Below are positions 54,946 through 64,000 of a stretch of 64,000 bases of DNA, in pieces. Made by a program: the position numbers and the translations under genes. Position 1 is the stretch's first letter; every line of letters begins with the position of its first letter. The notes beneath the pieces are model-generated. The model saw only the letters and a program-made list of their open reading frames with translations, had not been told where the DNA came from and ran no database searches. Origin of the DNA: a virus; the IMG/VR virus record IMGVR_UViG_3300032249_000925, positions 35,363-99,362 of that record; one strand, 5' to 3'.

Positions 54946-57900
54946 TTAACCAGCAATAATTTCAATGCCAGAATACCTTGCGCTTACATAACCACTACTT
55001 AAATATCTTATACCGCTTGCATAAGCATCTGAATTAATTACAGCATAAGAAACAATATTACTTAAATCTGTAAATAGAACGCTAGACTGTGTAATTACTA
55101 TGCCTGCATAATCTTCTACAGCATAGTCTTCAAGTGCATAGTCTTGTTGTCTAAAAGTTATATTTTCTTGTACAAAAGATACTTGATCTTCTAAAGCTTT
55201 AATTTTTGATGATAAGAATTTATCATAGCTAAAAAGCTCTGTGCTAGTAAAACTATCGGCGAATTCAGTACTGTACACAAAACCTAATATATCTTGAATT
55301 ATACCTTGGTCTGCTAAATTAAAATATGCGCTGTATATTAAACTTGTACCCCCAATACCATCAGTGCTATCTATTAGTGCCTTATTAATACTAACGTACT
55401 CATCATCACCTAAAGTAGCTGTGCCGTAATAATCGTCTGTGATATTTATGGTATCAAACAGATCTTTAACACGTGTAATATCAAGGGTTTCTATAATAGA
55501 AGCATAGCTATTAATATTAACAGTATTATAGTTAAATGTTATACCAGCATAATCTTCTATGGCATAGTCTTCAAGTGCATAATCTTGTTGTCTAAAGTTT
55601 ATAGCTTCTTTTACAAGTGATATTTGTTCTATAAAGTTTTTAATATCTTTTGCTTCTAGTTTAATATAGGTAAAAAACTCTGAGCTAGTAAAACTATCGG
55701 CGAATTCAGTACTGTACACAAAACCTAATATATCTTGAATTATACCTTGATCCGCTAAATTAAAATATGCGCTGTATATTAAACTTGTACCCCCAATACT
55801 ACTAGTATCTATAATAACGTTATTGATACTAGCATATGCACTGTCTGCAACAACTAAAGTATCAAATAAGTCGTCTTTAACACGTGTAATATCAAGAGTT
55901 TCTATAATAGAAGCATAGGTAGTAATATTAACATTATTATAGTTAAAAACTATACCTAAATAATCATCTTTAATATAATCGCTTAAAAAGTAATTTTGCT
56001 TATTAAGCTTAAATTTAGTAGTTTCAAGATTATTTGCTAACAATAGCTCTTTAATAAGTTTTCTTGTTCCCTTAAACTGATGATCGTATACAAAATCCTC
56101 TGTGGCAATTAAGCTATCTTGTAAGTTAGTTGTAACAAATGCAGATAAAATTTCACTAGAATTTATTAAGTCAATTAAGGTATTACCAACTAAAACTGAA
56201 AATACTTCTTGTTGTGAGTTAATTGTCTCCAACAATACTTTATAGGGAGTTAATGGATTAGTATCTTGAACATTGCTTAATGTATCCTGTAGATTAGCAC
56301 TAGATAAAAAGCCTAAATCATCACTAGTAATTGCTAAGTCTAGTAAAACATTAAATATATCATAAACCATTGTTGTGCTTATGATGCCATCAGTACTGTC
56401 TATTAGTGCCTTATTAATACTAACGTATTCATCGTCGCCTAAAGTAGCCGCACCGTAATAATCGTCTGTGATATTTACAGTAGTAAACAGATCTTTAACG
56501 CGTATAATTTTAAAATCGTCAGTAATTATGCTATTTTCATCTGGAGCATATACGCGTATATAATTTTCTATTATTTCTGTAGCACTATACAGTTGAGGGT
56601 CGAGAATCTTTTCTACTCTAGTAAATAAGTTATCTAATAAAAAATAATTACTAGTAGCTGGTTTTTCATACTGTTTATAAGTTTTTTCATCCGGCAATAA
56701 TTGCTCTGGATCGTTTTCACGTTTATATAAAAAGTAAGGATCTGACTCTATTATACTAGTATTTTCAAGAGGTACATTAAGTAGGTACTTAATAATACTT
56801 ACATCACTAGCTAAATATCTATCATCATCTAGTTTAGTGTCAACAAAGAATTTTATAGGATCTAATGTTATGCCTATGTCTTGTAGTACTAAACCTATAT
56901 TAAAATAAATTGGTTCGTCTGTAACTTTATTAGAATCACTAATAGTTATTTTAAATAGTAGTTCTACTAAATCTGTATTATTTATTAGGTCTAGATCAAC
57001 AAACTTATTAAGATAATTTATAATAAAATCGTCAGTTGCTGTAGAATCTACTAATACACTATCAATATTAAAATAGTAATCACTATCGTTAAAAGCAATA
57101 AGATCTCTTACGTCTTTATTAACATTAGCATACTGATCATCATCTATATTACTTATGCCGTAAAAATCATCAGTAGTATAGAAAGAATCATAAAAGTTAT
57201 AGATAAATGTAAATGCTGGATCTGCAGTAACAGTTACGCTATCTAGTAAAACTTTATTAAAGTCTACAAAATTAAACTCAGTAGTTAAAACGTTATCTTC
57301 AGCAAGTTTAATAAATAACAATTCATTAAAATCACTTTGACTAACTGTTTCACTTCTAGGTTTTCTTACTAGAAAGCTAATTAGATCTAAGTTTTTTAAG
57401 TTAGTTAGTTCATTAACCGGTTTGCGTATTAATAAACTAAATACAGAATCAGTGTTAACAGTGTCTAGTCTTTCTAATAAGTATTCTAATAATACTTCGT
57501 CATTAACTAAATACTTGTCTGTAAAATCGCGTTTCCAAGTAAATCTAATATAGTCACTATCAGTAATTACTTTGTCTAATTTAACAAGTTGAGGTTTTGT
57601 TATTATCTTATCAATAGGACCAATTGGATCTATATAACTAGTATAAATTGCTAGTTTAAATTCAGGGTCATCAATATAACTAGTATCTTGATACTCACGT
57701 TTATAATCTATAGATAGTAAAATACTTTCTGTTACTTTTGGACTGTCTTGTAGCTGTTTAAGTATAAATAGTGACTGTACAACACTAATAAACTGATCTT
57801 CAAAAAATCGTCGAAATACTCCTAGTAAAGGCGTTACTATAGTACTTTCAACGCCAGGAATTACTACATTAAGATTGCCTTCTGGAACTTTAGTAGTAAA

Positions 57901-58053
57901 ACCATTTTCGCTATAAGTAACTACTGCAAAAGGTAAAGTATAGTTACTAACTGTACCAGGAATAATAGTACCATTACTACTAATTTGTGGAATAGATACA
58001 CCAACACTAACTCCTGGAATAGTATAACTTGTAGTTATTGGTGTAGTTGCCAT
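54946..58053 (-). CDS. Large acidic repetitive virion protein
   Basis: Asp/Thr/Ile-rich short repeats; internal duplications. Confidence 0.7.
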   Translation of the reverse strand: MATTPITTSYTIPGVSVGVSIPQISSNGTIIPGTVSNYTLPFAVVTYSENGFTTKVPEGNLNVVIPGVESTIVTPLLGVFRRFFEDQFISVVQSLFILKQLQDSPKVTESILLSIDYKREYQDTSYIDDPEFKLAIYTSYIDPIGPIDKIITKPQLVKLDKVITDSDYIRFTWKRDFTDKYLVNDEVLLEYLLERLDTVNTDSVFSLLIRKPVNELTNLKNLDLISFLVRKPRSETVSQSDFNELLFIKLAEDNVLTTEFNFVDFNKVLLDSVTVTADPAFTFIYNFYDSFYTTDDFYGISNIDDDQYANVNKDVRDLIAFNDSDYYFNIDSVLVDSTATDDFIINYLNKFVDLDLINNTDLVELLFKITISDSNKVTDEPIYFNIGLVLQDIGITLDPIKFFVDTKLDDDRYLASDVSIIKYLLNVPLENTSIIESDPYFLYKRENDPEQLLPDEKTYKQYEKPATSNYFLLDNLFTRVEKILDPQLYSATEIIENYIRVYAPDENSIITDDFKIIRVKDLFTTVNITDDYYGAATLGDDEYVSINKALIDSTDGIISTTMVYDIFNVLLDLAITSDDLGFLSSANLQDTLSNVQDTNPLTPYKVLLETINSQQEVFSVLVGNTLIDLINSSEILSAFVTTNLQDSLIATEDFVYDHQFKGTRKLIKELLLANNLETTKFKLNKQNYFLSDYIKDDYLGIVFNYNNVNITTYASIIETLDITRVKDDLFDTLVVADSAYASINNVIIDTSSIGGTSLIYSAYFNLADQGIIQDILGFVYSTEFADSFTSSEFFTYIKLEAKDIKNFIEQISLVKEAINFRQQDYALEDYAIEDYAGITFNYNTVNINSYASIIETLDITRVKDLFDTINITDDYYGTATLGDDEYVSINKALIDSTDGIGGTSLIYSAYFNLADQGIIQDILGFVYSTEFADSFTSTELFSYDKFLSSKIKALEDQVSFVQENITFRQQDYALEDYAVEDYAGIVITQSSVLFTDLSNIVSYAVINSDAYASGIRYLSSGYVSARYSGIEIIAG
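55243..55799. repeat. Near-identical direct repeat (55243-55358 and 55684-55799) inside the acidic protein gene
   Basis: 116-nt copies 441 nt apart; further partial copies near 55370-55470 and 56400-56500. Confidence 0.85.
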
Positions 58054-58065
58054 AAAACTCTCTTA

Positions 58066-58689
58066 TTACGCAGTTTGGAACAATAAGTCCGTTACTTGAT
58101 CAGTAGGACTAAACATTAGTTGAATCATACCTCTAATAGGTTTAAAAGTTCTACTAAATACTGCACTAGGCGGCTCAGTAACACGTAATTCAAAGAATCC
58201 ATATACATCACTGTTTGCACTAGGTTGTACTTTCCAAGTTGTGCCTAAATTACCGGGAAATTGTACATAGATTTTATTTAATACAGTTTCTGACCAACGT
58301 ACAGGATCAAAAGTAGGATCTTGGAGACTTGTATAAGCAAAACCATAATTTAATTTATAGTACTTATCATTAAATTTTACTATTTCTTCTACATTATACA
58401 CTCCAGTAGGTGACCAAACACCAACATAAGTAGGTATTCTTACAAACAATCTAGTAAAAGCTCCGCCGGGTTCTACTGCCTTAGGTTTATCTGATTGATC
58501 AGGAGCATTAGCTGCTTCAATAACAACAGCTTCATAAATATAGTTACCGCTGGGTTTTAGTGTAGCATCAAAAATAAAGTTTAAAGTAATAGGAAACTCT
58601 AACTGTTCGCCACGCACCATTGACCATAGTATTGATCCAGCATCGCTAATTATATCTAAGCTAGTATTTGTTAATCTTGATCGTGCCAT
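58066..58689 (-). CDS. Virion-associated hypothetical protein
   Basis: W.PTGVYNVEEIVKFNDKYY short carbohydrate-binding-like motif. Confidence 0.6.
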   Translation of the reverse strand: MARSRLTNTSLDIISDAGSILWSMVRGEQLEFPITLNFIFDATLKPSGNYIYEAVVIEAANAPDQSDKPKAVEPGGAFTRLFVRIPTYVGVWSPTGVYNVEEIVKFNDKYYKLNYGFAYTSLQDPTFDPVRWSETVLNKIYVQFPGNLGTTWKVQPSANSDVYGFFELRVTEPPSAVFSRTFKPIRGMIQLMFSPTDQVTDLLFQTA

Positions 58690-59033
58690 GAGGTTTCCTT
58701 TAGTTTAACTATAGAAAGGTCTTTTAATTTACTAATCTCAGCAGTTAGTTTTACAATTTCAGCATGTAATGCTTGATTTTCTACAGTTAGGGTTCTTAAT
58801 TGTTGATTTAATTCAATTACTTCGGTTTGTAGTTTACCTAATTCTTCACTTAGTTTAGAGTTTTGCTGACTCATACGCTCTAATTCAGTGTGCATAATTG
58901 TAATAATATGCGACTCTGTTTTATCGGTTTTAAATAGAGTAAAAAATTTTTGTAATAAAAAAGCTAATGCTACTAATCCGCCAGTACCTGCAATAAGTAT
59001 TTGTAGTATTGAGTTAGTTTCTTCTGGATTCAC
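58671..59033 (-). CDS. TM plus coiled-coil protein
   Basis: Hydrophobic N-terminus, heptad repeat; AGGAG RBS with GTG start. Confidence 0.65.
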   Translation of the reverse strand: MNPEETNSILQILIAGTGGLVALAFLLQKFFTLFKTDKTESHIITIMHTELERMSQQNSKLSEELGKLQTEVIELNQQLRTLTVENQALHAEIVKLTAEISKLKDLSIVKLKETSWHDQD

Positions 59034-59079
59034 TATTAGCTCCTACAAGAAAGTTACGTTAAATTAATAATTTTGTTCT

Positions 59080-59108
59080 ATTATATCATAGCACCATATA
59101 AGTGTCAA
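59080..59108 (-). promoter_or_regulatory. Consensus sigma70 promoter driving the leftward structural/lysis block
   Basis: TTGACA-17 bp-TATAAT on the minus strand. Confidence 0.85.
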
Positions 59109-59111
59109 TAT

Positions 59112-59144
59112 AAAAAAATACCTACCCCATTGGAGTAGGTATTT
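59112..59144 (-). terminator. Rho-independent terminator
   Basis: AAATACCTAC/GTAGGTATTT stem with a T tract on the minus strand. Confidence 0.75.
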
Positions 59145-59147
59145 AAC

Positions 59148-59576
59148 TTAAACAGGTTTTGTAGGCCACTCTATTGTATTAGGATAGCCTGGTTGTGCGT
59201 CTATATCTCGTAATTTTTGTCTGTAGGTTTGCCAGTCTTTGGGAATTGGTACGCCTTGGTCCAATGCTCTAATAACAATCCAATCAGATTCTCTTAATAA
59301 TCTTTGTTGTAGTTTTTTAATTTTTAAAAGCATTAATCCTTCAGAAAGTTCCCACTGTTTTGAATCTGGGTCCCACATATGATTAGAACTAGGTTGTGGT
59401 GGTATAGTAACTATAGAATTATCTTGTATATAGTAATCACTATTTTCAGGTAAACCATCTGCTAATTTTGCACCTATATCTTCTGATAACATATGTGTAA
59501 TATCTTCTAGATTACAGTCTTTCATTACCTGTATAAGTTGTCCTGTTTTTTTATTATAAAGTATATAAGTATTCAT
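59148..59576 (-). CDS. Tail fibre assembly chaperone
   Basis: LLRESDW...WQTYRQKLRDI..QPGYP..IEWPTKP. Confidence 0.88.
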   Translation of the reverse strand: MNTYILYNKKTGQLIQVMKDCNLEDITHMLSEDIGAKLADGLPENSDYYIQDNSIVTIPPQPSSNHMWDPDSKQWELSEGLMLLKIKKLQQRLLRESDWIVIRALDQGVPIPKDWQTYRQKLRDIDAQPGYPNTIEWPTKPV

Positions 59577-59629
59577 TTTTAAAATATGTATATTTGTACA
59601 AGGTCAATAAAATATTGATTAATTAAGAC

Positions 59630-60157
59630 TTATTTAATTGTTAATGTAGCATTGTGTGTCCAAATCCAACGATCTGGTTCATCACCAGCAGCATAACATT
59701 GATTATCACAAAAGATAGTTGCTACTTCTCCTCGACCTGCATCAATGATTTCTACAATTTCTTCCCAACGGAAACCATACTTGTAATCTTGTACAGGTAA
59801 TAAATTACCTACGGCCTCAGTGCTGTTGATACAAGATCCATCTTGCAATGTAAGTGGTGTATTATCCGAACAAGTTAGTTTAATTCCAGAACTAGATACT
59901 AAAGTTAATAGTTTTTGTTCACTAATTCTATTAGATATTACGTTGCCAGTTACTATGCCTTTACGGTTTGGAGATAATAGTAATAATGGATCTCCTGCTG
60001 TCATTGTACCAGCTAACTTATTATAAGGCATATAGGCATTTACCGAAACGCTACTTCCAGTTGTTGCAATTTTCATTATATATGCTAATGCATAGTAAGG
60101 TGACAAATTTTGATTAGTGCCACTAACACCTGTAGAGTCAGTAGTAATAGTGCTCAT
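59630..60157 (-). CDS. Tail-collar C-terminal strand fused to a Hint (intein-like) domain
   Basis: Starts STGVSGTNQNLSPYYALAYIMK; LTCSDNTPL block B-like; ends WTHN-A. Confidence 0.75.
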   Translation of the reverse strand: MSTITTDSTGVSGTNQNLSPYYALAYIMKIATTGSSVSVNAYMPYNKLAGTMTAGDPLLLLSPNRKGIVTGNVISNRISEQKLLTLVSSSGIKLTCSDNTPLTLQDGSCINSTEAVGNLLPVQDYKYGFRWEEIVEIIDAGRGEVATIFCDNQCYAAGDEPDRWIWTHNATLTIK

Positions 60158-60215
60158 GTTTTTTCTCCAATCAGTGGATTTTTATTTTCTAACAGCATAT
60201 TTAAAATTTTATCTT

Positions 60216-61106
60216 TTAAAAGCTTGTTTTACTAATTTTAAGAGTTTTTGTTCCAGATAAACCAAAAACAAATGGACCAGTGCCGTCGTGTCCTGTCGGT
60301 TCTGAGAAGTTAGTGTTACCGCTAACGCCACTGACTGACACTGTAAGTCCTCCAACAATTTCGATAGTGTACCTACCTGTATAACTCTGGGCAGTGTCAA
60401 AAACTAACTCAATGTCGTTGTAACCACCGTCAGCCCCACTTGCATCATCAAATGAATGCTGCAATGCAATAATATTACCAGTCCATAGACTACTAGTGGT
60501 AGGACTTAAACTTCCAAAAGCGTAAGAAGAGCCACCCATAGAATTATATCCAGTTTGGCCAACAGCACCAGTACCACTGCTACTATACCCGCCAACAGTC
60601 ATAGTAAGGGTAACACTTGTTGGTGCTGCTGGTGCCTGGCTAGTATCAATGACTGAAATGTAGCCGCTTTGTAAAACAGGGGTATTGCTAATACCGTTAA
60701 TATTTATTACAAATTGCTCAGTACCTTCAGTTAAATTATCAGCTATAAGATTTAATGTAAATGAACCAGTATTGCTATTAATTATAAATGTTCCAGTAAG
60801 TGGTCCAGTAATACCAAAATCACTACTACTAATAGCACCAGGGCTTGCCGTGCCAATTCCCCAATAACATGTACTACCATTAGGTACATTAGTAGTGTTA
60901 ACAGTCACTGTTAAACTACTGCTTTCATTAATACTAGTTGGTAAGGGGCCAAATGCATATGTTGGCGATGTTGGTGGTGCTGGTGGTGCTGGTGGTGTTA
61001 TAATTGTGCCACTTGCAAGTTTCATTATAAATGGTAGTGCATGGAAGGGTGGCAAGTTTTGATTGAGGCCAGTAGTGCCTGTAGAATCAGTAGTAATAGT
61101 GCTCAT
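60216..61106 (-). CDS. Tail-collar C-terminal strand fused to a Pro linker, Calx-beta/Ig-like and tip domains
   Basis: Starts STGTTGLNQNLPPFHALPFIMK; SINES..ADNLTEGTEQF. Confidence 0.75.
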   Translation of the reverse strand: MSTITTDSTGTTGLNQNLPPFHALPFIMKLASGTIITPPAPPAPPTSPTYAFGPLPTSINESSSLTVTVNTTNVPNGSTCYWGIGTASPGAISSSDFGITGPLTGTFIINSNTGSFTLNLIADNLTEGTEQFVININGISNTPVLQSGYISVIDTSQAPAAPTSVTLTMTVGGYSSSGTGAVGQTGYNSMGGSSYAFGSLSPTTSSLWTGNIIALQHSFDDASGADGGYNDIELVFDTAQSYTGRYTIEIVGGLTVSVSGVSGNTNFSEPTGHDGTGPFVFGLSGTKTLKISKTSF

Positions 61107-61226
61107 GTTTTTTTGACTAATGCGTTTACAATAGGATTGCCTAGCCTATTAATTACAAATGCTATTAGCATAGTTTAATCCTTATTTTATTATTTAATTG
61201 TAGTACTGCAGCCAAAGCTTTTAGTT

Positions 61227-61709
61227 TTAAAAAACTTTCCTAGCATTAAACATTCTAGGTACCCTGTTAGGAGTTAAATCGTCAAATGGTAGCGCAGGAG
61301 GAATTAAAAATTTTCCAGTTTGTTTGTGTACACTTTCTATTGTTTCTCGCAATGATGTTGGAACTGGAATCATTTCAGGATCAATAATAGTTTCTGTTTC
61401 ATCACGTAAAGCATGAATGCAACAAACAACGGTGTTATCTTCTAAAGAAGTTATTTGATGGGCAATATTTTTTTCAATCATTACCATTGATGGAGCATGA
61501 TAGACAACAGGGTCTAATAATTCTTGAGTATTATCGTTGTATACTTGAATCGCAATAGATCCAGATGCTACAAGACTAGTATGTGAATATGGATGTCTAT
61601 GTCCAACTTCGACAATGCCTTCTTTTGAAAATAGCATACGCCTAACGTACACATTGGAAAGACAAGAAATTTTAATTTCGGGTCCTTGTTGTGTTGCTTG
61701 TGGTTTCAT
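61227..61709 (-). CDS. Cupin-fold protein
   Basis: GHRHPYSHTSLVASG...AHQI...CCIH. Confidence 0.75.
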   Translation of the reverse strand: MKPQATQQGPEIKISCLSNVYVRRMLFSKEGIVEVGHRHPYSHTSLVASGSIAIQVYNDNTQELLDPVVYHAPSMVMIEKNIAHQITSLEDNTVVCCIHALRDETETIIDPEMIPVPTSLRETIESVHKQTGKFLIPPALPFDDLTPNRVPRMFNARKVF

Positions 61710-61951
61710 CTTACAAATGATCCTAACTCAATAGTTTGAAATTGACGTGTTTCGTAATTCCATTTTAAAATTCGACGAGCTTTACCACTACTAATATTTT
61801 GAATTCGAATTTCAAGTGCCCAGTCTGGAAGTGGCACAACTGACATACCGTCTGGTTCAGAATACACAATATTTTCTTCTGTACCAACACCGTGCTCTAC
61901 TATTATTCCATTTATAATTTTAGCTATATTCATTATTAAGTACTCTGCCAT
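61706..61951 (-). CDS. Hypothetical protein
   Basis: Coupled ORF downstream of the tail tip gene. Confidence 0.55.
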   Translation of the reverse strand: MAEYLIMNIAKIINGIIVEHGVGTEENIVYSEPDGMSVVPLPDWALEIRIQNISSGKARRILKWNYETRQFQTIELGSFVR

Positions 61952-64000
61952 AAACGTGCTGTAATTATGTGGGGACCACCATTTGCTGGGTGATATACGT
62001 GTACCTGGTGTCGATTAATTCCTGAAGCAAGAATTTGTCTTTTAACGTTTGCTACCTCAAATTCTGCGTCGATGCCAGCGCTACCATAAGTTACCCAGTA
62101 ATCAAAATCAATTTCTACTAGTCCTAGACTACCGCCAGCGGGTATGGTAACAATATCCGTTGCCTCTTCCGGAGCAACATTAATAGACCCTGTAACTGTT
62201 CCTGTTGCAGTTTGTTTAAGTACTCCACCAGTATTAGTAATGGTATGAGTGTGTGCTACTACTACTGCATCAGCTGTGCCACCTCTACTTCCTGGAGTAA
62301 AAGTACTACTAGAACCCATAACAAATCGATCGCGTAGATCAGGTGTACCATTTCCTCCATCACATAATGCCCAGCCAGGGGGTATTGTAGACCCGGAAAA
62401 CGTAATAATACCACCAGTTGGAAAAGCTGCTCCAAGATCTAGTTTATCAGCAGTAATTGTTCCAACTTTAATATTACCACCAGCAATAACGTTACCATTA
62501 AAATTAAGTGCGCCACCATTATAGGTAATATTAGTAGTACTATTGCCAAAAGCAAAATGTCCGTCTTTATTAATTAGACCACCAGCTCCAGTCATTGTAG
62601 TACCACTTATAGCAGCTGTACCAGCCTTAAAATCACCAGTTACTGTTAAGTCACCAGTATTTGCAGTAATTGCTGATAAAGTACCTACTTTAAGTGTACT
62701 TAAGTAGGGAACATTCCAAGTAGTGTTATCGGTAACAACATTATAAAAACCATCACTTTGATATACACTTTCACCAGCTGTTATACTAGGAGGAGTTGCT
62801 TGCCAAACTGTGCCTGCTCCCCAGGAGTCATTAGCAGGAAAACTAATATTTCCTGTAGTTACAATAGTAGTAGGTGTAGAGCCCAGACTTGTTAAAGTGG
62901 TTTTAGTGTAAGCTGTTCTAGCGGAAACTCCTTGATATCCGCGTCTAGATAGACTATAACTAATAGTTGTGGTTAATTTAGTTAAAACATTTGCAGCATC
63001 TCTAATACTTACTTCTATTATAGCATTTGCAGTATCACTGGTCATAGCAACGGGATCATTAACAGTAAACACATTACCACTACCACTACCAGTTACAGTA
63101 ATGCCTGAAGTAGAGAATACCATAGCACTAAATGTTTTAGCACCGCTAGTAGCATAGTTAAGTTGTTCTGTACCTATATAAGCTCTTATTAGTGCAAGAC
63201 TACCACTAAAATCAATACCTGCATAACCAGAAGCCGCGCCAGCAAAAGTAATATTTTCATTACTATTAGTAATACTAATAGCACTGCTTGCGTCTATTAA
63301 TAGCGGAATAGTTATTTGATCGGCTACTGTAGTTGTAATATTATTAAATTTGCATGTTAATTCACACTTATATGTGTTTGTAACAACTGTACTGCTATAG
63401 TCAGTATTAGCTACTGTATAGCTACTAGCAGTAGCACCACTAATTAGATCAAAAGTACCCGTACTACTAGTTTGTTTATACCACTTATAACTTTCTGAAC
63501 CAGCATCAGTATTTTGTGCTATAGTAGTTAATGTAACATTTGTAGGAGTTATAGTAGTATCTACAGCTCTTTTAAACGTAACAGCACTATTTTGAATAGA
63601 AAATATTCCTGCATAAAAACCAGTTCTAGCTAAACTATAACTAATAGTTGAAGTTAGTGTGCTTAAAGTACCAGCAGCATCTCTAATATTTACTGTTACT
63701 ACTGCAGTAGCTGTATCTTTGCTCATGGCACTAGGTTGAGTAACATTAAACACATTACCACTGCCACTACCAGTTACAGTAACACCATCAGTAACTATTG
63801 TACAATCAAATGTTTTAGCACCAGTAGTAGCATAGTTAAGCTGTTCTGTGCCTATATAAACTCTTATTACTGCACTACCACCAGTAAAATCAATACCTGT
63901 ATAACCAAAAACAGGTCCTGCAAAAGTAATATTTTCATTACTATTAGTAATACTAATAGCACTGCTTGAGTCTATTAGTAGCGGAATAGTTATTTGATCA
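61936..64000 (-). CDS. C-terminal part of a large central tail fibre / host-specificity protein (5' end outside the window)
   Basis: Reading frame stays open to 64000; internal repeat of about 678 nt; LSAITANTGDL motif; tail-collar N-half FPTGGII..GWALCDG.NGTPDLRDRF..G followed by HTH. Confidence 0.85.
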   Translation of the reverse strand, partial: DQITIPLLIDSSSAISITNSNENITFAGPVFGYTGIDFTGGSAVIRVYIGTEQLNYATTGAKTFDCTIVTDGVTVTGSGSGNVFNVTQPSAMSKDTATAVVTVNIRDAAGTLSTLTSTISYSLARTGFYAGIFSIQNSAVTFKRAVDTTITPTNVTLTTIAQNTDAGSESYKWYKQTSSTGTFDLISGATASSYTVANTDYSSTVVTNTYKCELTCKFNNITTTVADQITIPLLIDASSAISITNSNENITFAGAASGYAGIDFSGSLALIRAYIGTEQLNYATSGAKTFSAMVFSTSGITVTGSGSGNVFTVNDPVAMTSDTANAIIEVSIRDAANVLTKLTTTISYSLSRRGYQGVSARTAYTKTTLTSLGSTPTTIVTTGNISFPANDSWGAGTVWQATPPSITAGESVYQSDGFYNVVTDNTTWNVPYLSTLKVGTLSAITANTGDLTVTGDFKAGTAAISGTTMTGAGGLINKDGHFAFGNSTTNITYNGGALNFNGNVIAGGNIKVGTITADKLDLGAAFPTGGIITFSGSTIPPGWALCDGGNGTPDLRDRFVMGSSSTFTPGSRGGTADAVVVAHTHTITNTGGVLKQTATGTVTGSINVAPEEATDIVTIPAGGSLGLVEIDFDYWVTYGSAGIDAEFEVANVKRQILASGINRHQVHVYHPANGGPHIITARLWQST

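What the first reader, a model, noticed from the sequence alone, without database searches (positions are those of the whole stretch)
59630..62425. Tail-collar domain split across three genes: one N-half, two alternative C-strand carriers
Known: phage tail-collar domains normally run G.I..W..CDG.NGTPDLR.RF..G...HxH...TN.NLPPYYALAYIMK in one chain. Seen: the large tail-tip gene has only the N-half plus AHTHTIT and then diverges, never supplying the closing strand. Two separate downstream genes start with exactly that missing piece (MSTITTDSTGTTGLNQNLPPFHALPFIMK and MSTITTDSTGVSGTNQNLSPYYALAYIMK) and share about 35 nt around their starts (AAAAAACATGAGCACTATTACTACTGA). One carries an Ig/Calx-beta tip and the other a Hint domain. 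Inference: a plug-and-socket system in which strand complementation in trans docks interchangeable modules onto the tail tip. A DNA cassette switch is less likely, since only ATTACTA is shared at the junction and no recombinase is visible.
Basis: partly seen in the sequence, partly recalled or inferred. Interest (0 to 1): 0.82.

Follow-up and report, generated by a model that had tools for sequence, protein, structure and literature searches.

The report
Tail fibre gene split into docking pieces
In this uncultured 99-kb phage the tail-collar domain at the fibre tip is cut in two: the big fibre protein keeps the first part, and two separately translated downstream genes each begin with the missing closing segment and carry different cargo. 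They most likely plug into the fibre tip, which is predicted here and not shown by experiment.

Summary
The 1001-aa fibre protein has the collar N-part up to AHTHTIT and then a private 99-aa tail. It lacks the family-invariant closing element (..SxGxSGTNxNLPPYYALAYIMK). Two downstream genes (296 and 175 aa) start exactly with that element.

- **Single-chain relative:** a close relative (L003) encodes the same fibre as one 1269-aa chain: collar, Calx-like Ig, then a Hint-like module.
- **Sister strain:** a second strain on a 40-kb contig has the same split. Both adaptors are unchanged over the first 29 residues (one difference at residue 30 of the 175-aa type), but the third cargo is a beta-propeller.
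- **Rarity:** in 86 other viral loci the closing element always lies inside the fibre ORF, almost always at its very end.
- **Genome content:** one collar N-part, two canonical closers, no serine or tyrosine recombinase, and no Rfam intron in the region.
- **Complex model:** a 3+3 model puts the 36-mer onto the N-part, score 0.91 against a best control of 0.01. This may only reflect likeness to solved single-chain collars.
- **Cargo:** the 175-aa protein has a Hint/BIL fold under purifying selection.

Still open: the fibre's own conserved C-terminus might close the collar, and expression is untested.

The same scan has flagged split-domain joints in other phages, but in other domains. A solved precedent for such a composite domain is Tuc2009 BppU-BppA.

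Verdict: the trans-docking reading is supported in silico, with confidence about 0.6.

The parts
61936..63999 (-). 3' part of the large distal tail-fibre gene. The full ORF is 1001 aa and continues over the end of the record.
   Evidence: It is 88% identical in DNA to the single-chain fibre of L003 down to 62233. It is 91-93% identical in protein to P0228 of the sister strain.
62236..62427 (-). Collar N-part (the socket): FPTGGIITF..GWALCDGGNGTPDLRDRF..AHTHTIT, including the HxH motif.
   Evidence: PF07484 positions 1-21, E 7.6e-4, below the cut-off. There are 12,134 homologues. PDB 9qgo matches at E 2.6e-12. These residues form the confident interface in the complex model.
61939..62235 (-). 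Private 99-aa tail of the large protein, ending GPHIITARLWQST. Probably a head domain; a self-closing strand is not excluded.
   Evidence: No counterpart in L003. It is 71% identical to P0228/P0001 and the last 13 residues are identical. hhalign finds no homology to the canonical C-half. MAFFT loosely aligns its end with the closers.
61706..61951 (-). ORF of 81 aa, function unknown, inside the segment absent from L003.
   Evidence: No Pfam or PHROG hit. The X2 contig covers this stretch continuously, at about 5% difference over the whole contig piece.
61227..61709 (-). ORF of 160 aa, weakly cupin-like, inside the segment absent from L003.
   Evidence: Cupin_2 E 0.0024, below the cut-off. phrog_12032 'short tail fiber protein' E 1.8e-4.
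61103..61171 (-). Leader mini-ORF of 22 codons with an AAGGA upstream. Its TGA overlaps the ATG of the 296-aa gene (ATGA).
   Evidence: It is homologous to the leader of the 175-aa gene.
60216..61106 (-). Carrier 1 (296 aa): closing element (61020-61106), a Pro-rich linker, a Calx-like Ig module, and a roughly 145-aa C-terminal domain X.
   Evidence: P0176 aligns at 94% identity (BLASTP 91%), and its N-terminal 40 residues are identical. Domain X also ends another fibre, P0177. The Ig module is related to the P0190 repeats.
60154..60198 (-). Leader mini-ORF of 14 codons that ends in the same AAAACATGA overlap. A GGAG lies 7 nt before the main ATG.
59630..60157 (-). Carrier 2 (175 aa): closing element (60071-60157), the short linker IATTGS, and a Hint/BIL-like domain (about 59651-60052) ending WIWTHN.
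   Evidence: AF2 pLDDT 84.6. Foldseek matches BIL 2lwy, inteins and hedgehog 1at0 at probability 1.0. dN/dS is 0.16 against the L003 Hint. The first 29 residues are identical to P0223.
61087..61113 (-). 27-nt exact repeat, copy 1 (AAAAAAC + ATG + 17 nt).
60138..60164 (-). 27-nt exact repeat, copy 2.
   Evidence: The contigs of strain X2 break at both copies.
59148..59576 (-). Tail-fibre assembly chaperone, placed directly after the fibre module as in L003.
   Evidence: PF16778 E 2e-13. PHROG tail fiber assembly. Syntenic in L003.

Best explanation
The distal tail fibre is encoded in pieces.

**The socket.** The 1001-aa protein builds the shaft, the first part of the trimeric tail-collar domain (with its HxH site) and a private, fast-evolving 99-aa head. 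It lacks the collar's invariant closing element.

**The plugs.** Two downstream genes are translated on their own. Each starts exactly with that about 29-residue element, followed by a linker and cargo:
- Carrier 1 carries a Calx-like Ig module plus a tip domain X.
- Carrier 2 carries a Hint/BIL autoprocessing domain.

The closing element inserts into the open collar of the fibre trimer by beta-strand complementation. Cargo is thereby tethered non-covalently to the fibre tip.

**Modularity.** Because the adaptor is constant and the cargo varies, tips can be exchanged by recombination at the adaptor boundary. The sister strain has a beta-propeller as its third cargo.

**What is shown:** the anatomy, the single-chain relative, conservation of the adaptors, and the absence of recombinases and of an Rfam intron.

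**What is inferred:** independent translation, docking, stoichiometry, and that the Hint domain cuts itself off to leave a roughly 35-residue cap.
For: 1. L003, about 88-93% identical in DNA on both flanks, has one 1269-aa ORF: collar N-part, HTHTVT, insert, NLPPYYALAFIMK, linker, Ig, poly-Gly, then Hint. The same chaperone follows.
2. In 86 viral loci the closing element always lies in a fibre ORF with at least 139 aa upstream wherever the ORF is whole (five are cut by a contig end, one with only 32 aa). It is never at an N-terminus.
3. The genome has one N-part and two canonical closers, and the closers are only on the carriers. hhalign aligns the large protein to the canonical profile only as far as HTHTIT.
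4. P0228, P0176 and P0223 each come from a contig of the same length, 40,425 bp, most simply one contig. They repeat the arrangement, and run X2 shows it too. The 29-mers are 100% conserved, against 94% for the rest of carrier 1 and 71% for the 99-aa tail. The third cargo is swapped exactly behind the adaptor.
5. The leaders of both carriers are homologous, each with a mini-ORF whose stop overlaps the main ATG. Carrier 2 has a GGAG like other genes of this phage.
6. Both paralogous closers keep the family-invariant residues despite 5 synonymous and 10 non-synonymous codon differences between them.
7. The Hint domain has dN/dS 0.16 against L003, so it is not a decaying remnant.
8. Complex model of the large C-terminal part x3 with the 36-mer x3: ipSAE 0.91, 0.91 and 0.89. 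The best of 3 controls was 0.01. The mark was reached by 58 of 80 solved complexes and 2 of 110 mismatched pairs. Contact agreement was at least 91% and the partner's pLDDT at least 81. The interface covers residues 29-92 of the 190-residue piece, which is the N-part.
9. A 7.5-kb contig spans the locus in the source run, and a second sample holds the same order.
Against: - The large protein ends in GPHIITARLWQST, identical in the sister strain and loosely closer-like. MAFFT aligned it with the closers, and the AF2 monomer model failed at pLDDT 44. Self-closure is therefore not excluded.
- The complex pass may come from likeness to solved single-chain collars such as 9qgo. My own alignments were used, and a 3+3 job is unlike the tool's calibration.
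- The closer of carrier 1 departs from four nearly invariant positions (F21, H22, P25, F26).
- Carrier 1 has no Shine-Dalgarno sequence of its own.
- There is no RNA, proteome or raw-read evidence; only contigs were available.
- The split is seen only in two closely related strains, and the sequencing runs that show it come from one study.
Confidence: 0.6

Rival explanations
1. The large fibre protein is complete on its own. Its 99-aa tail supplies a diverged closing strand or makes closure unnecessary. The two downstream genes are then independent proteins whose conserved N-terminus does something else, or they are left-overs from the recombination that brought in the new tail.
For: The terminal 13 residues of the tail are 100% conserved between strains and match a loose closer pattern. 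The tail (99 aa) is about as long as 'insert plus closer' in single-chain relatives. The 2.1-kb block is absent from L003, so it arrived or was lost by recombination.
Against: hhalign finds no homology beyond HTHTIT. Useless closers should decay, yet both 29-mers are identical between strains while the rest differs, and both keep the family invariants. The Hint cargo is under purifying selection. The leaders and starts are conserved as a unit. The complex model puts the trans peptide in the socket; the fibre's own tail is not part of the confident interface.
Confidence: 0.27
2. The pieces are joined into one chain, either at the DNA level (deletion or cassette switch between the short HTHTIT/MSTIT repeats) or at the RNA or translation level (intron, bypassing). 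The downstream ORFs would then be alternative C-terminal exons.
For: Fusing AHTHTIT to TDSTG.. in frame would recreate a known single-chain sequence, as in P0174 ..HTHTITTDSTGVSATNANLPPYYALAYIMKIA. The junctions are homologous codons.
Against: Only 7 nt are shared with the fibre junction. The complete genome has no Resolvase or Phage_integrase family. All cassettes lie in direct orientation. Rfam finds no intron at E<=1, and the leaders do not fold better than shuffles. The stretch that would be skipped is almost filled with ORFs, including the 99-aa tail, which is conserved as protein. No joining contig appears in three runs, though contigs would hide rare variants.
Confidence: 0.08
3. Assembly artefact: a chimeric contig that stitches together fragments of several fibre alleles.
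For: The locus contains repeats, and the record comes from a metagenome.
Against: One 7.5-kb contig covers 58000-63271 without a difference in the source run. A related strain in another sample has the same order of pieces. The proteins attributed to a separate 40-kb assembly match all three parts.
Confidence: 0.02

Closest known systems
Single-chain tail-collar fibre tips: Pfam PF07484 plus the C-terminal ..NLPPYYALAYIMK strand. Examples are the Photorhabdus PVC fibre in PDB 9qgo and T4 gp12, PDB 1ocy (a weak hit only).
   Same: The same N-part motif, the same HxH and the same closing element. 9qgo has the N-part at residues 240-312 and ends ..PPYYLLAFIMKL. The sister phage L003 has all parts in one chain.
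   Different: Here the closing element is missing from the chain that holds the N-part. It sits at the N-terminus of two other proteins, and cargo follows it.
Tuc2009 baseplate tripod, BppU-BppA joint (crystal structure, PMC4742702).
   Same: Two separately encoded phage adhesion proteins are joined by a composite beta domain. A 25-residue BppU hairpin 'completes one of the beta-sheets' of BppA, and the composite resembles a titin domain.
   Different: It involves a different fold and different proteins, in a siphophage baseplate. There are no alternative carriers sharing one adaptor, and that paper describes no single-chain relative.
Donor-strand complementation in chaperone-usher pili (from my own knowledge).
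   Same: The working principle is the same: an incomplete beta fold is completed by an N-terminal strand from another subunit.
   Different: There is no homology. Pilins have Ig-like folds and are assembled by a chaperone and an usher. Here the fold is a trimeric collar domain of a phage fibre.
Separately encoded adhesins and branched receptor-binding proteins: T2/S16 gp38 on the gp37 tip, and the anchor-branch systems of G7C or CBA120 (from my own knowledge). Also the transient chaperone 'caps' of Alteromonas phage fibres (PMC10579305).
   Same: Extra proteins encoded next to the fibre gene sit on the fibre tip and alter or extend host recognition.
   Different: Those proteins dock through whole folded domains, not through the missing piece of a domain that is intact in relatives.
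Genes in pieces in phages: Aeh1 nrdA split by the mobE homing endonuclease gene, with the fragments reassembling (PMC3045599).
   Same: A gene that is whole in relatives is interrupted by inserted DNA. The pieces are translated separately and work together.
   Different: No nuclease is recognisable in the inserted block. Here the split also creates two alternative second halves.
Invertible tail-fibre cassettes: Mu Gin, P1 Cin, and shufflons (PMC9881135 surveys programmed inversions).
   Same: Alternative fibre C-termini are encoded behind a constant part.
   Different: Those systems need a recombinase and inverted repeats. Neither is present here.

Membership tests
Phage tail collar domain (PF07484 N-part plus C-terminal closing strand) | N-part motif G.I..W.....P.GW..CDG.NGTPDLR.RF | tested here: met
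   It is in the large protein at 62236-62427. The Pfam hit has E 7.6e-4, 19.8 bits, below the 24-bit cut-off, and covers model positions 1-21 only. phmmer finds 12,134 relatives. 9qgo matches at E 2.6e-12.
Phage tail collar domain (PF07484 N-part plus C-terminal closing strand) | HxH motif after the N-part | tested here: met
   AHTHTIT. H86 and H88 are invariant in alignment A1.
Phage tail collar domain (PF07484 N-part plus C-terminal closing strand) | Closing element ..SxGxSGTNxNLPPYYALAYIMK in the same chain | tested here: not met
   It is absent from the large protein: the strict regex finds nothing, and hhalign stops at HTHTIT. It is present at the N-terminus of the 296-aa and 175-aa proteins. 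It lies in the same chain in all 86 other loci.
Hint / bacterial intein-like (BIL) domain | Hint fold | tested here: met
   AF2 pLDDT 84.6. Foldseek: 2lwy BIL E 4.7e-7, NpuDnaB intein TM 0.66/0.80, hedgehog 1at0; 52 hits at E<=0.001.
Hint / bacterial intein-like (BIL) domain | Match to a Pfam Hint or intein sequence model | tested here: not met
   No Pfam family at E<=0.1.
Hint / bacterial intein-like (BIL) domain | Nucleophile (Cys/Ser) at position 1 and terminal His-Asn | tested here: inconclusive
   The G-S-V start after poly-Gly is the consensus of the 27-row alignment, and T-H-N at the end is nearly invariant there. The first strand of the model starts at Ser36. That this Ser is the nucleophile is inferred. 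The residue after Asn varies and is not Cys, Ser or Thr.
Hint / bacterial intein-like (BIL) domain | Autoproteolysis | not testable with these tools
   This needs expression and mass spectrometry.
Invertible or recombinase-driven tail-fibre cassette switch (Gin/Cin, shufflon) | Site-specific recombinase gene | tested here: not met
   PF00239 and PF00589 are absent from the complete 99-kb genome. The control genomes were positive.
Invertible or recombinase-driven tail-fibre cassette switch (Gin/Cin, shufflon) | Inverted repeats flanking oppositely oriented cassettes | tested here: not met
   All cassettes are on the same strand. The only repeat is a direct 27-mer.
Gene in pieces caused by a homing endonuclease | Intact single-chain homologue in a close relative | tested here: met
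   The 1269-aa ORF of L003.
Gene in pieces caused by a homing endonuclease | Nuclease gene in the inserted block | tested here: not met
   The 81-aa and 160-aa ORFs have no nuclease family hit. The only hits are a weak cupin and a weak 'short tail fiber' PHROG.
Self-splicing intron between exons | Catalytic RNA fold | tested here: not met
   No Rfam intron at E<=1 in 57000-64000. Leader fold z-scores are +1.0 and +0.1.

The most novel reading that the evidence does not exclude
The fibre tip is a three-socket hub that is filled after translation by competing plugs. One plug carries a receptor-binding module. The other is a self-cleaving Hint fusion that leaves only a roughly 35-residue cap, or uses its ester intermediate to link the cap covalently. 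The ratio of the two would set how many fibres of a virion carry the extra binding module. That would give mixed host-recognition phenotypes without any DNA change, and new tips could be acquired simply by recombination behind a constant 29-residue adaptor.
Probability: 0.15. Interest if true: 0.85.

Novelty: new variant of a known kind. Interest (0 to 1): 0.68.

Why it matters
Phage host range is set by fibre tips. How new tips are attached is a practical question for understanding and re-targeting phages of laboratory and environmental bacteria.

If the collar domain really is completed in trans, a 29-residue adaptor is enough to hang arbitrary cargo on a fibre. That would be a simple natural docking rule. 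One phage here has the parts fused, and two strains have them split with different cargo.

It would also extend the composite-domain joint solved in Tuc2009 to a very widespread fibre domain (more than 12,000 relatives in the search). And it gives the common C-terminal Hint-like module of phage structural proteins a testable role.

Tried and rejected
- **AF2, large C-terminal piece:** the monomer model (190 aa, 21-row alignment) failed at pLDDT 44. It says nothing about self-closure.
- **ESM Atlas:** no usable hit for the 99-aa tail. For the 296-aa protein only weak structural neighbours appeared (TM up to 0.52), some of them Calx-beta.
- **Metagenome scans:** two scans, with the 296-aa protein and with P0001, found nothing.
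- **Viral-contig scans:** scans with the 296-aa protein, the exact 20-mer and a degenerate M-S-T-I-T-T-D-S-T-G pattern found nothing.
- **Cultured phages:** none shares the locus.
- **Read laying:** only contigs were served. No J1-J2 or J1-J3 joint was seen, but rare variants are invisible in contigs. Run X3 gave only short unlike pieces.
- **Literature:** 'strand complementation' with 'tail fiber' returned no paper. 'Hint domain' with 'tail fiber' returned only terminase inteins and unrelated papers.
- **L079:** I suspected a collar-Hint fusion, but it is a collar followed by a second, classical collar.
- **Group I intron:** splice sites after CAT and at the G of the ATG would be in frame. 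I rejected this for lack of any catalytic RNA signal, lack of non-coding space, and the protein-level conservation of the tail.

Full report
**What is there**

The window is the last 64 kb of a 99,362-bp IMG/VR virus record. The record has a 123-bp terminal repeat, so it is a complete circular assembly. GC is 37%. All genes of the locus lie on the minus strand.

- The large fibre gene stops at 61936. Read across the record's end, it is 1001 aa.
- Near its end it reads FPTGGIITFSGSTIPPGWALCDGGNGTPDLRDRF...AVVVAHTHTIT (62427-62236). After that come 99 residues that resemble nothing in the collar family.
- Downstream lie an 81-aa ORF, a 160-aa weakly cupin-like ORF, a 296-aa ORF, a 175-aa ORF, and then a tail-fibre assembly chaperone (PF16778, E 2e-13).
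- The 296-aa and 175-aa proteins start MSTITTDSTGTTGLNQNLPPFHALPFIMK and MSTITTDSTGVSGTNQNLSPYYALAYIMK.
- Their starts share an exact 27-mer. A 20-mer from it matches twice against 0.02 expected.

**The family context**

The N-part has 12,134 relatives at E<=0.001. Its best solved relative is the Photorhabdus PVC fibre 9qgo. That protein has the N-part at residues 240-312 and ends ..PPYYLLAFIMKL.

I collected 86 viral loci that hold the closing element.
- The element always lies in an ORF with at least 139 residues upstream wherever the ORF is whole (five are cut by a contig end).
- In most of them a strict pattern finds the collar N-part in the same ORF (73 of 88 matches).
- In all but three loci it is followed by at most 2 residues.
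- None sits at an ORF start.

An alignment of 34 canonical C-halves shows an invariant G..G-T-..N-L-P-P-Y-Y-A-L-A-.-I-M.

Single-chain members such as P0174 end ...GDHTHTITTDSTGVSATNANLPPYYALAYIMKIA. The MSTITTDSTG of the two small genes therefore corresponds to a second HTHTITTDSTG motif. The cut lies between the variable 'head' insert and the closing element.

**A sister phage with one chain**

L003 (IMGVR_UViG_3300032225_001463) is colinear with the window from 64000 to 62233 at 88% DNA identity, and from 60054 to 58000 at 93%. Its fibre is one 1269-aa ORF. In order it holds:
- the same shaft and the collar N-part,
- HTHTVT and a roughly 40-aa insert,
- TTGITIATAGVDGKDKNLPPYYALAFIMK,
- a Thr-rich linker and a Calx-like Ig module,
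- poly-Gly and the same Hint-like module, followed by the same chaperone gene.

Colinearity breaks exactly after HTHT(I/V)T. Window 62232-61061 has no counterpart in L003. This stretch holds the 99-aa tail, the two small ORFs, and the leader and first 15 codons of carrier 1.

The closer of carrier 1 matches L003 at 78%. The closer of carrier 2 matches at 88% and runs directly into the Hint module, skipping L003's Ig.

**A sister strain with the same split**

Three proteins of the public collection are each listed with a longest contig of 40,425 bp, most simply the same contig:
- P0228 is a 1225-aa fibre that ends in the same kind of tail.
- P0176 is 288 aa and aligns to carrier 1 at 94% identity.
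- P0223 is 599 aa. It has the same first 29 residues as carrier 2, then a Calx-like Ig module and an SBBP beta-propeller.

Contigs of a second sample (X2) laid on the window show the same arrangement.
- One piece covers 61088-63321 with about 5% differences.
- One piece covers carrier 1.
- One piece covers 58000-59626, then 2031 other letters, then 60065-60158.

The third cargo is therefore replaced exactly between the end of the adaptor and the stop codon.

Identities between the two strains:

| Part | Identity |
|---|---|
| Fibre shaft | 91-93% |
| Collar N-part | 95.5% |
| 99-aa tail | 71% (last 13 residues identical) |
| Carrier 1 | 94% |
| Both 29-residue adaptors | 100% |

The adaptor is the constant part, the cargo is the exchangeable part, and the tail is the fastest-evolving part.

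**Are the carriers real genes?**

- The two leaders are homologous over about 45-70 nt. Each contains a mini-ORF (22 and 14 codons) whose TGA overlaps the main ATG. This is the usual layout for coupled translation.
- The mini-ORF before carrier 1 has an AAGGA upstream. Carrier 2 has a GGAG 7 nt before its ATG. Many genes of this phage have a similar AGGA/GGAG-type signal.
- The two closers differ at 15 of 32 codons (5 synonymous, 10 non-synonymous), yet both keep the invariant family residues.
- The Hint module has dN/dS 0.16 against L003. Neighbouring genes show 0.23-0.39 at the same dS of about 0.25.

These are not decaying fragments. Expression itself was not tested.

**Does the large protein need a strand in trans?**

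- The genome has exactly one collar N-part and two canonical closers.
- A profile of the large protein's C-half (with P0001) aligns to the canonical C-half profile only up to HTHTIT: 27 columns, probability 96%.
- A 3+3 complex model places residues 1-32 of the carrier-2 peptide on residues 29-92 of the 190-residue piece, which is the N-part. The ipSAE scores were 0.91, 0.91 and 0.89, and the best of 3 controls was 0.01. The mark was reached by 58 of 80 solved complexes and 2 of 110 mismatched pairs. Contact agreement was at least 91%. The partner's pLDDT was at least 81; the other chains' pLDDT was 64-71.

This model supports binding but does not show it. Single-chain collars have been solved, so the pass may only reflect that likeness. 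My own alignments and a six-chain job also differ from the tool's calibration.

The large protein's own end, GPHIITARLWQST, is strictly conserved and loosely closer-like. MAFFT placed it under the closers. The monomer model was useless. Self-closure therefore remains the main rival.

**The cargo**

*Carrier 2.* Residues 33-170 fold with pLDDT above 90. They match a bacterial intein-like domain (2lwy), many inteins and hedgehog HhC at Foldseek probability 1.0. Pfam gives no sequence hit. The module (consensus start GGGGG-S-V...AYMP, end ...WIWTHN) ends dozens of otherwise unrelated proteins, some of them about 1000 aa long. From the Ser at the first strand and the terminal His-Asn, I infer that it is a self-cleaving C-terminal module. 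If so, carrier 2 would leave little more than the closing peptide.

*Carrier 1.* It has a Pro-rich linker, then one unit of a repeat found many times in P0190. Those repeats score 26 bits against the 27-bit Calx-beta cut-off. Last comes a roughly 145-aa domain that also ends another fibre, P0177.

**Other mechanisms**

- There is no serine or tyrosine recombinase in the complete genome.
- All cassettes lie in direct orientation, and only 7 nt are shared with the fibre junction.
- There is no Rfam intron, and the leaders are unstructured.
- The stretch that would have to be skipped is nearly full of ORFs.
- No joining contig was seen, although contigs cannot exclude rare variants.
- An assembly artefact is excluded by a 7.5-kb contig across the locus and by the second strain.

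**Comparison with what is known**

The domain is the ordinary tail-collar domain. What is unusual is that it is divided between proteins.
- The nearest solved precedent for a composite beta domain joining two phage adhesion proteins is Tuc2009 BppU-BppA (PMC4742702).
- The principle resembles donor-strand complementation in pili. That comparison rests on my own knowledge.
- The genetics resemble phage genes in pieces (PMC3045599), but without a recognisable nuclease.

I found no description of a split tail-collar domain.

Earlier notes of this scan report similar split-domain joints in other phages, in other domains: collagen caps, Ig-like and BACON. Those are unchecked AI notes and not independent evidence. 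They do suggest that the principle may be common.

**Verdict**

The plug-and-socket reading is supported in silico at about 0.6. The main rival, a self-sufficient fibre, stands at about 0.27. I class the finding as a new variant of a known kind.

Noticed in passing
window 62944-63999 and beyond the record end; P0228; L003:2608-6417: The fibre shaft contains tandem modules of about 224 aa (..DQITIPLLID.SSAISITNSNENITFAG..). Their copy number seems to account for much of the length difference between relatives: 1001 aa here, 1225 aa in the sister strain and 1269 aa in L003. Shaft length therefore seems to vary by repeat gain and loss.
   Followed up: partly
window 61227-61951: Two small ORFs lie between the fibre gene and the carriers: one of 81 aa with no family, and one of 160 aa that is weakly cupin-like with a GHRHPYSH motif and a weak hit to a 'short tail fiber' PHROG. 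The sister strain's contig (run X2) covers the stretch that holds them; L003 lacks them. They could be assembly or modification factors for the new 99-aa head.
   Followed up: partly
window 59080-59144: Behind the chaperone gene there is a strong terminator-like hairpin (13 pairs, then a T run; 59144-59116). It is followed at once by a perfect TTGACA-17-TATAAT promoter with an extended TG (59108-59080) in front of the 120-aa coiled-coil membrane protein gene.
   Followed up: no
P0154-P0221, L004:4534-6420: The Hint-like module (start GGGGG-SV...AYMP, end ...CYAAGDEP.RWIWTHN) is a widespread C-terminal end-piece of very different proteins of uncultured phages. It also occurs in jumbo Xanthomonas and Erwinia phages at 31-42% identity. 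One member (P0166) carries an additional true intein (PF14890). Pfam has no model for the module.
   Followed up: partly
window 54946-58053: A 1035-aa protein next to the fibre genes holds long internal repeats (..RVKDLFDTINITDDYYGTATLGDDEYVSINKALIDSTDGI.. occurs twice, nearly identical). It has no family assignment apart from one faint PHROG hit.
   Followed up: no
L079:4840-6540: In another phage one fibre protein has a collagen-like N-part, a collar of the type studied here, a Gly/Ser linker and then a second, classical MdpB-like collar. Collars can therefore be stacked in one chain.
   Followed up: no
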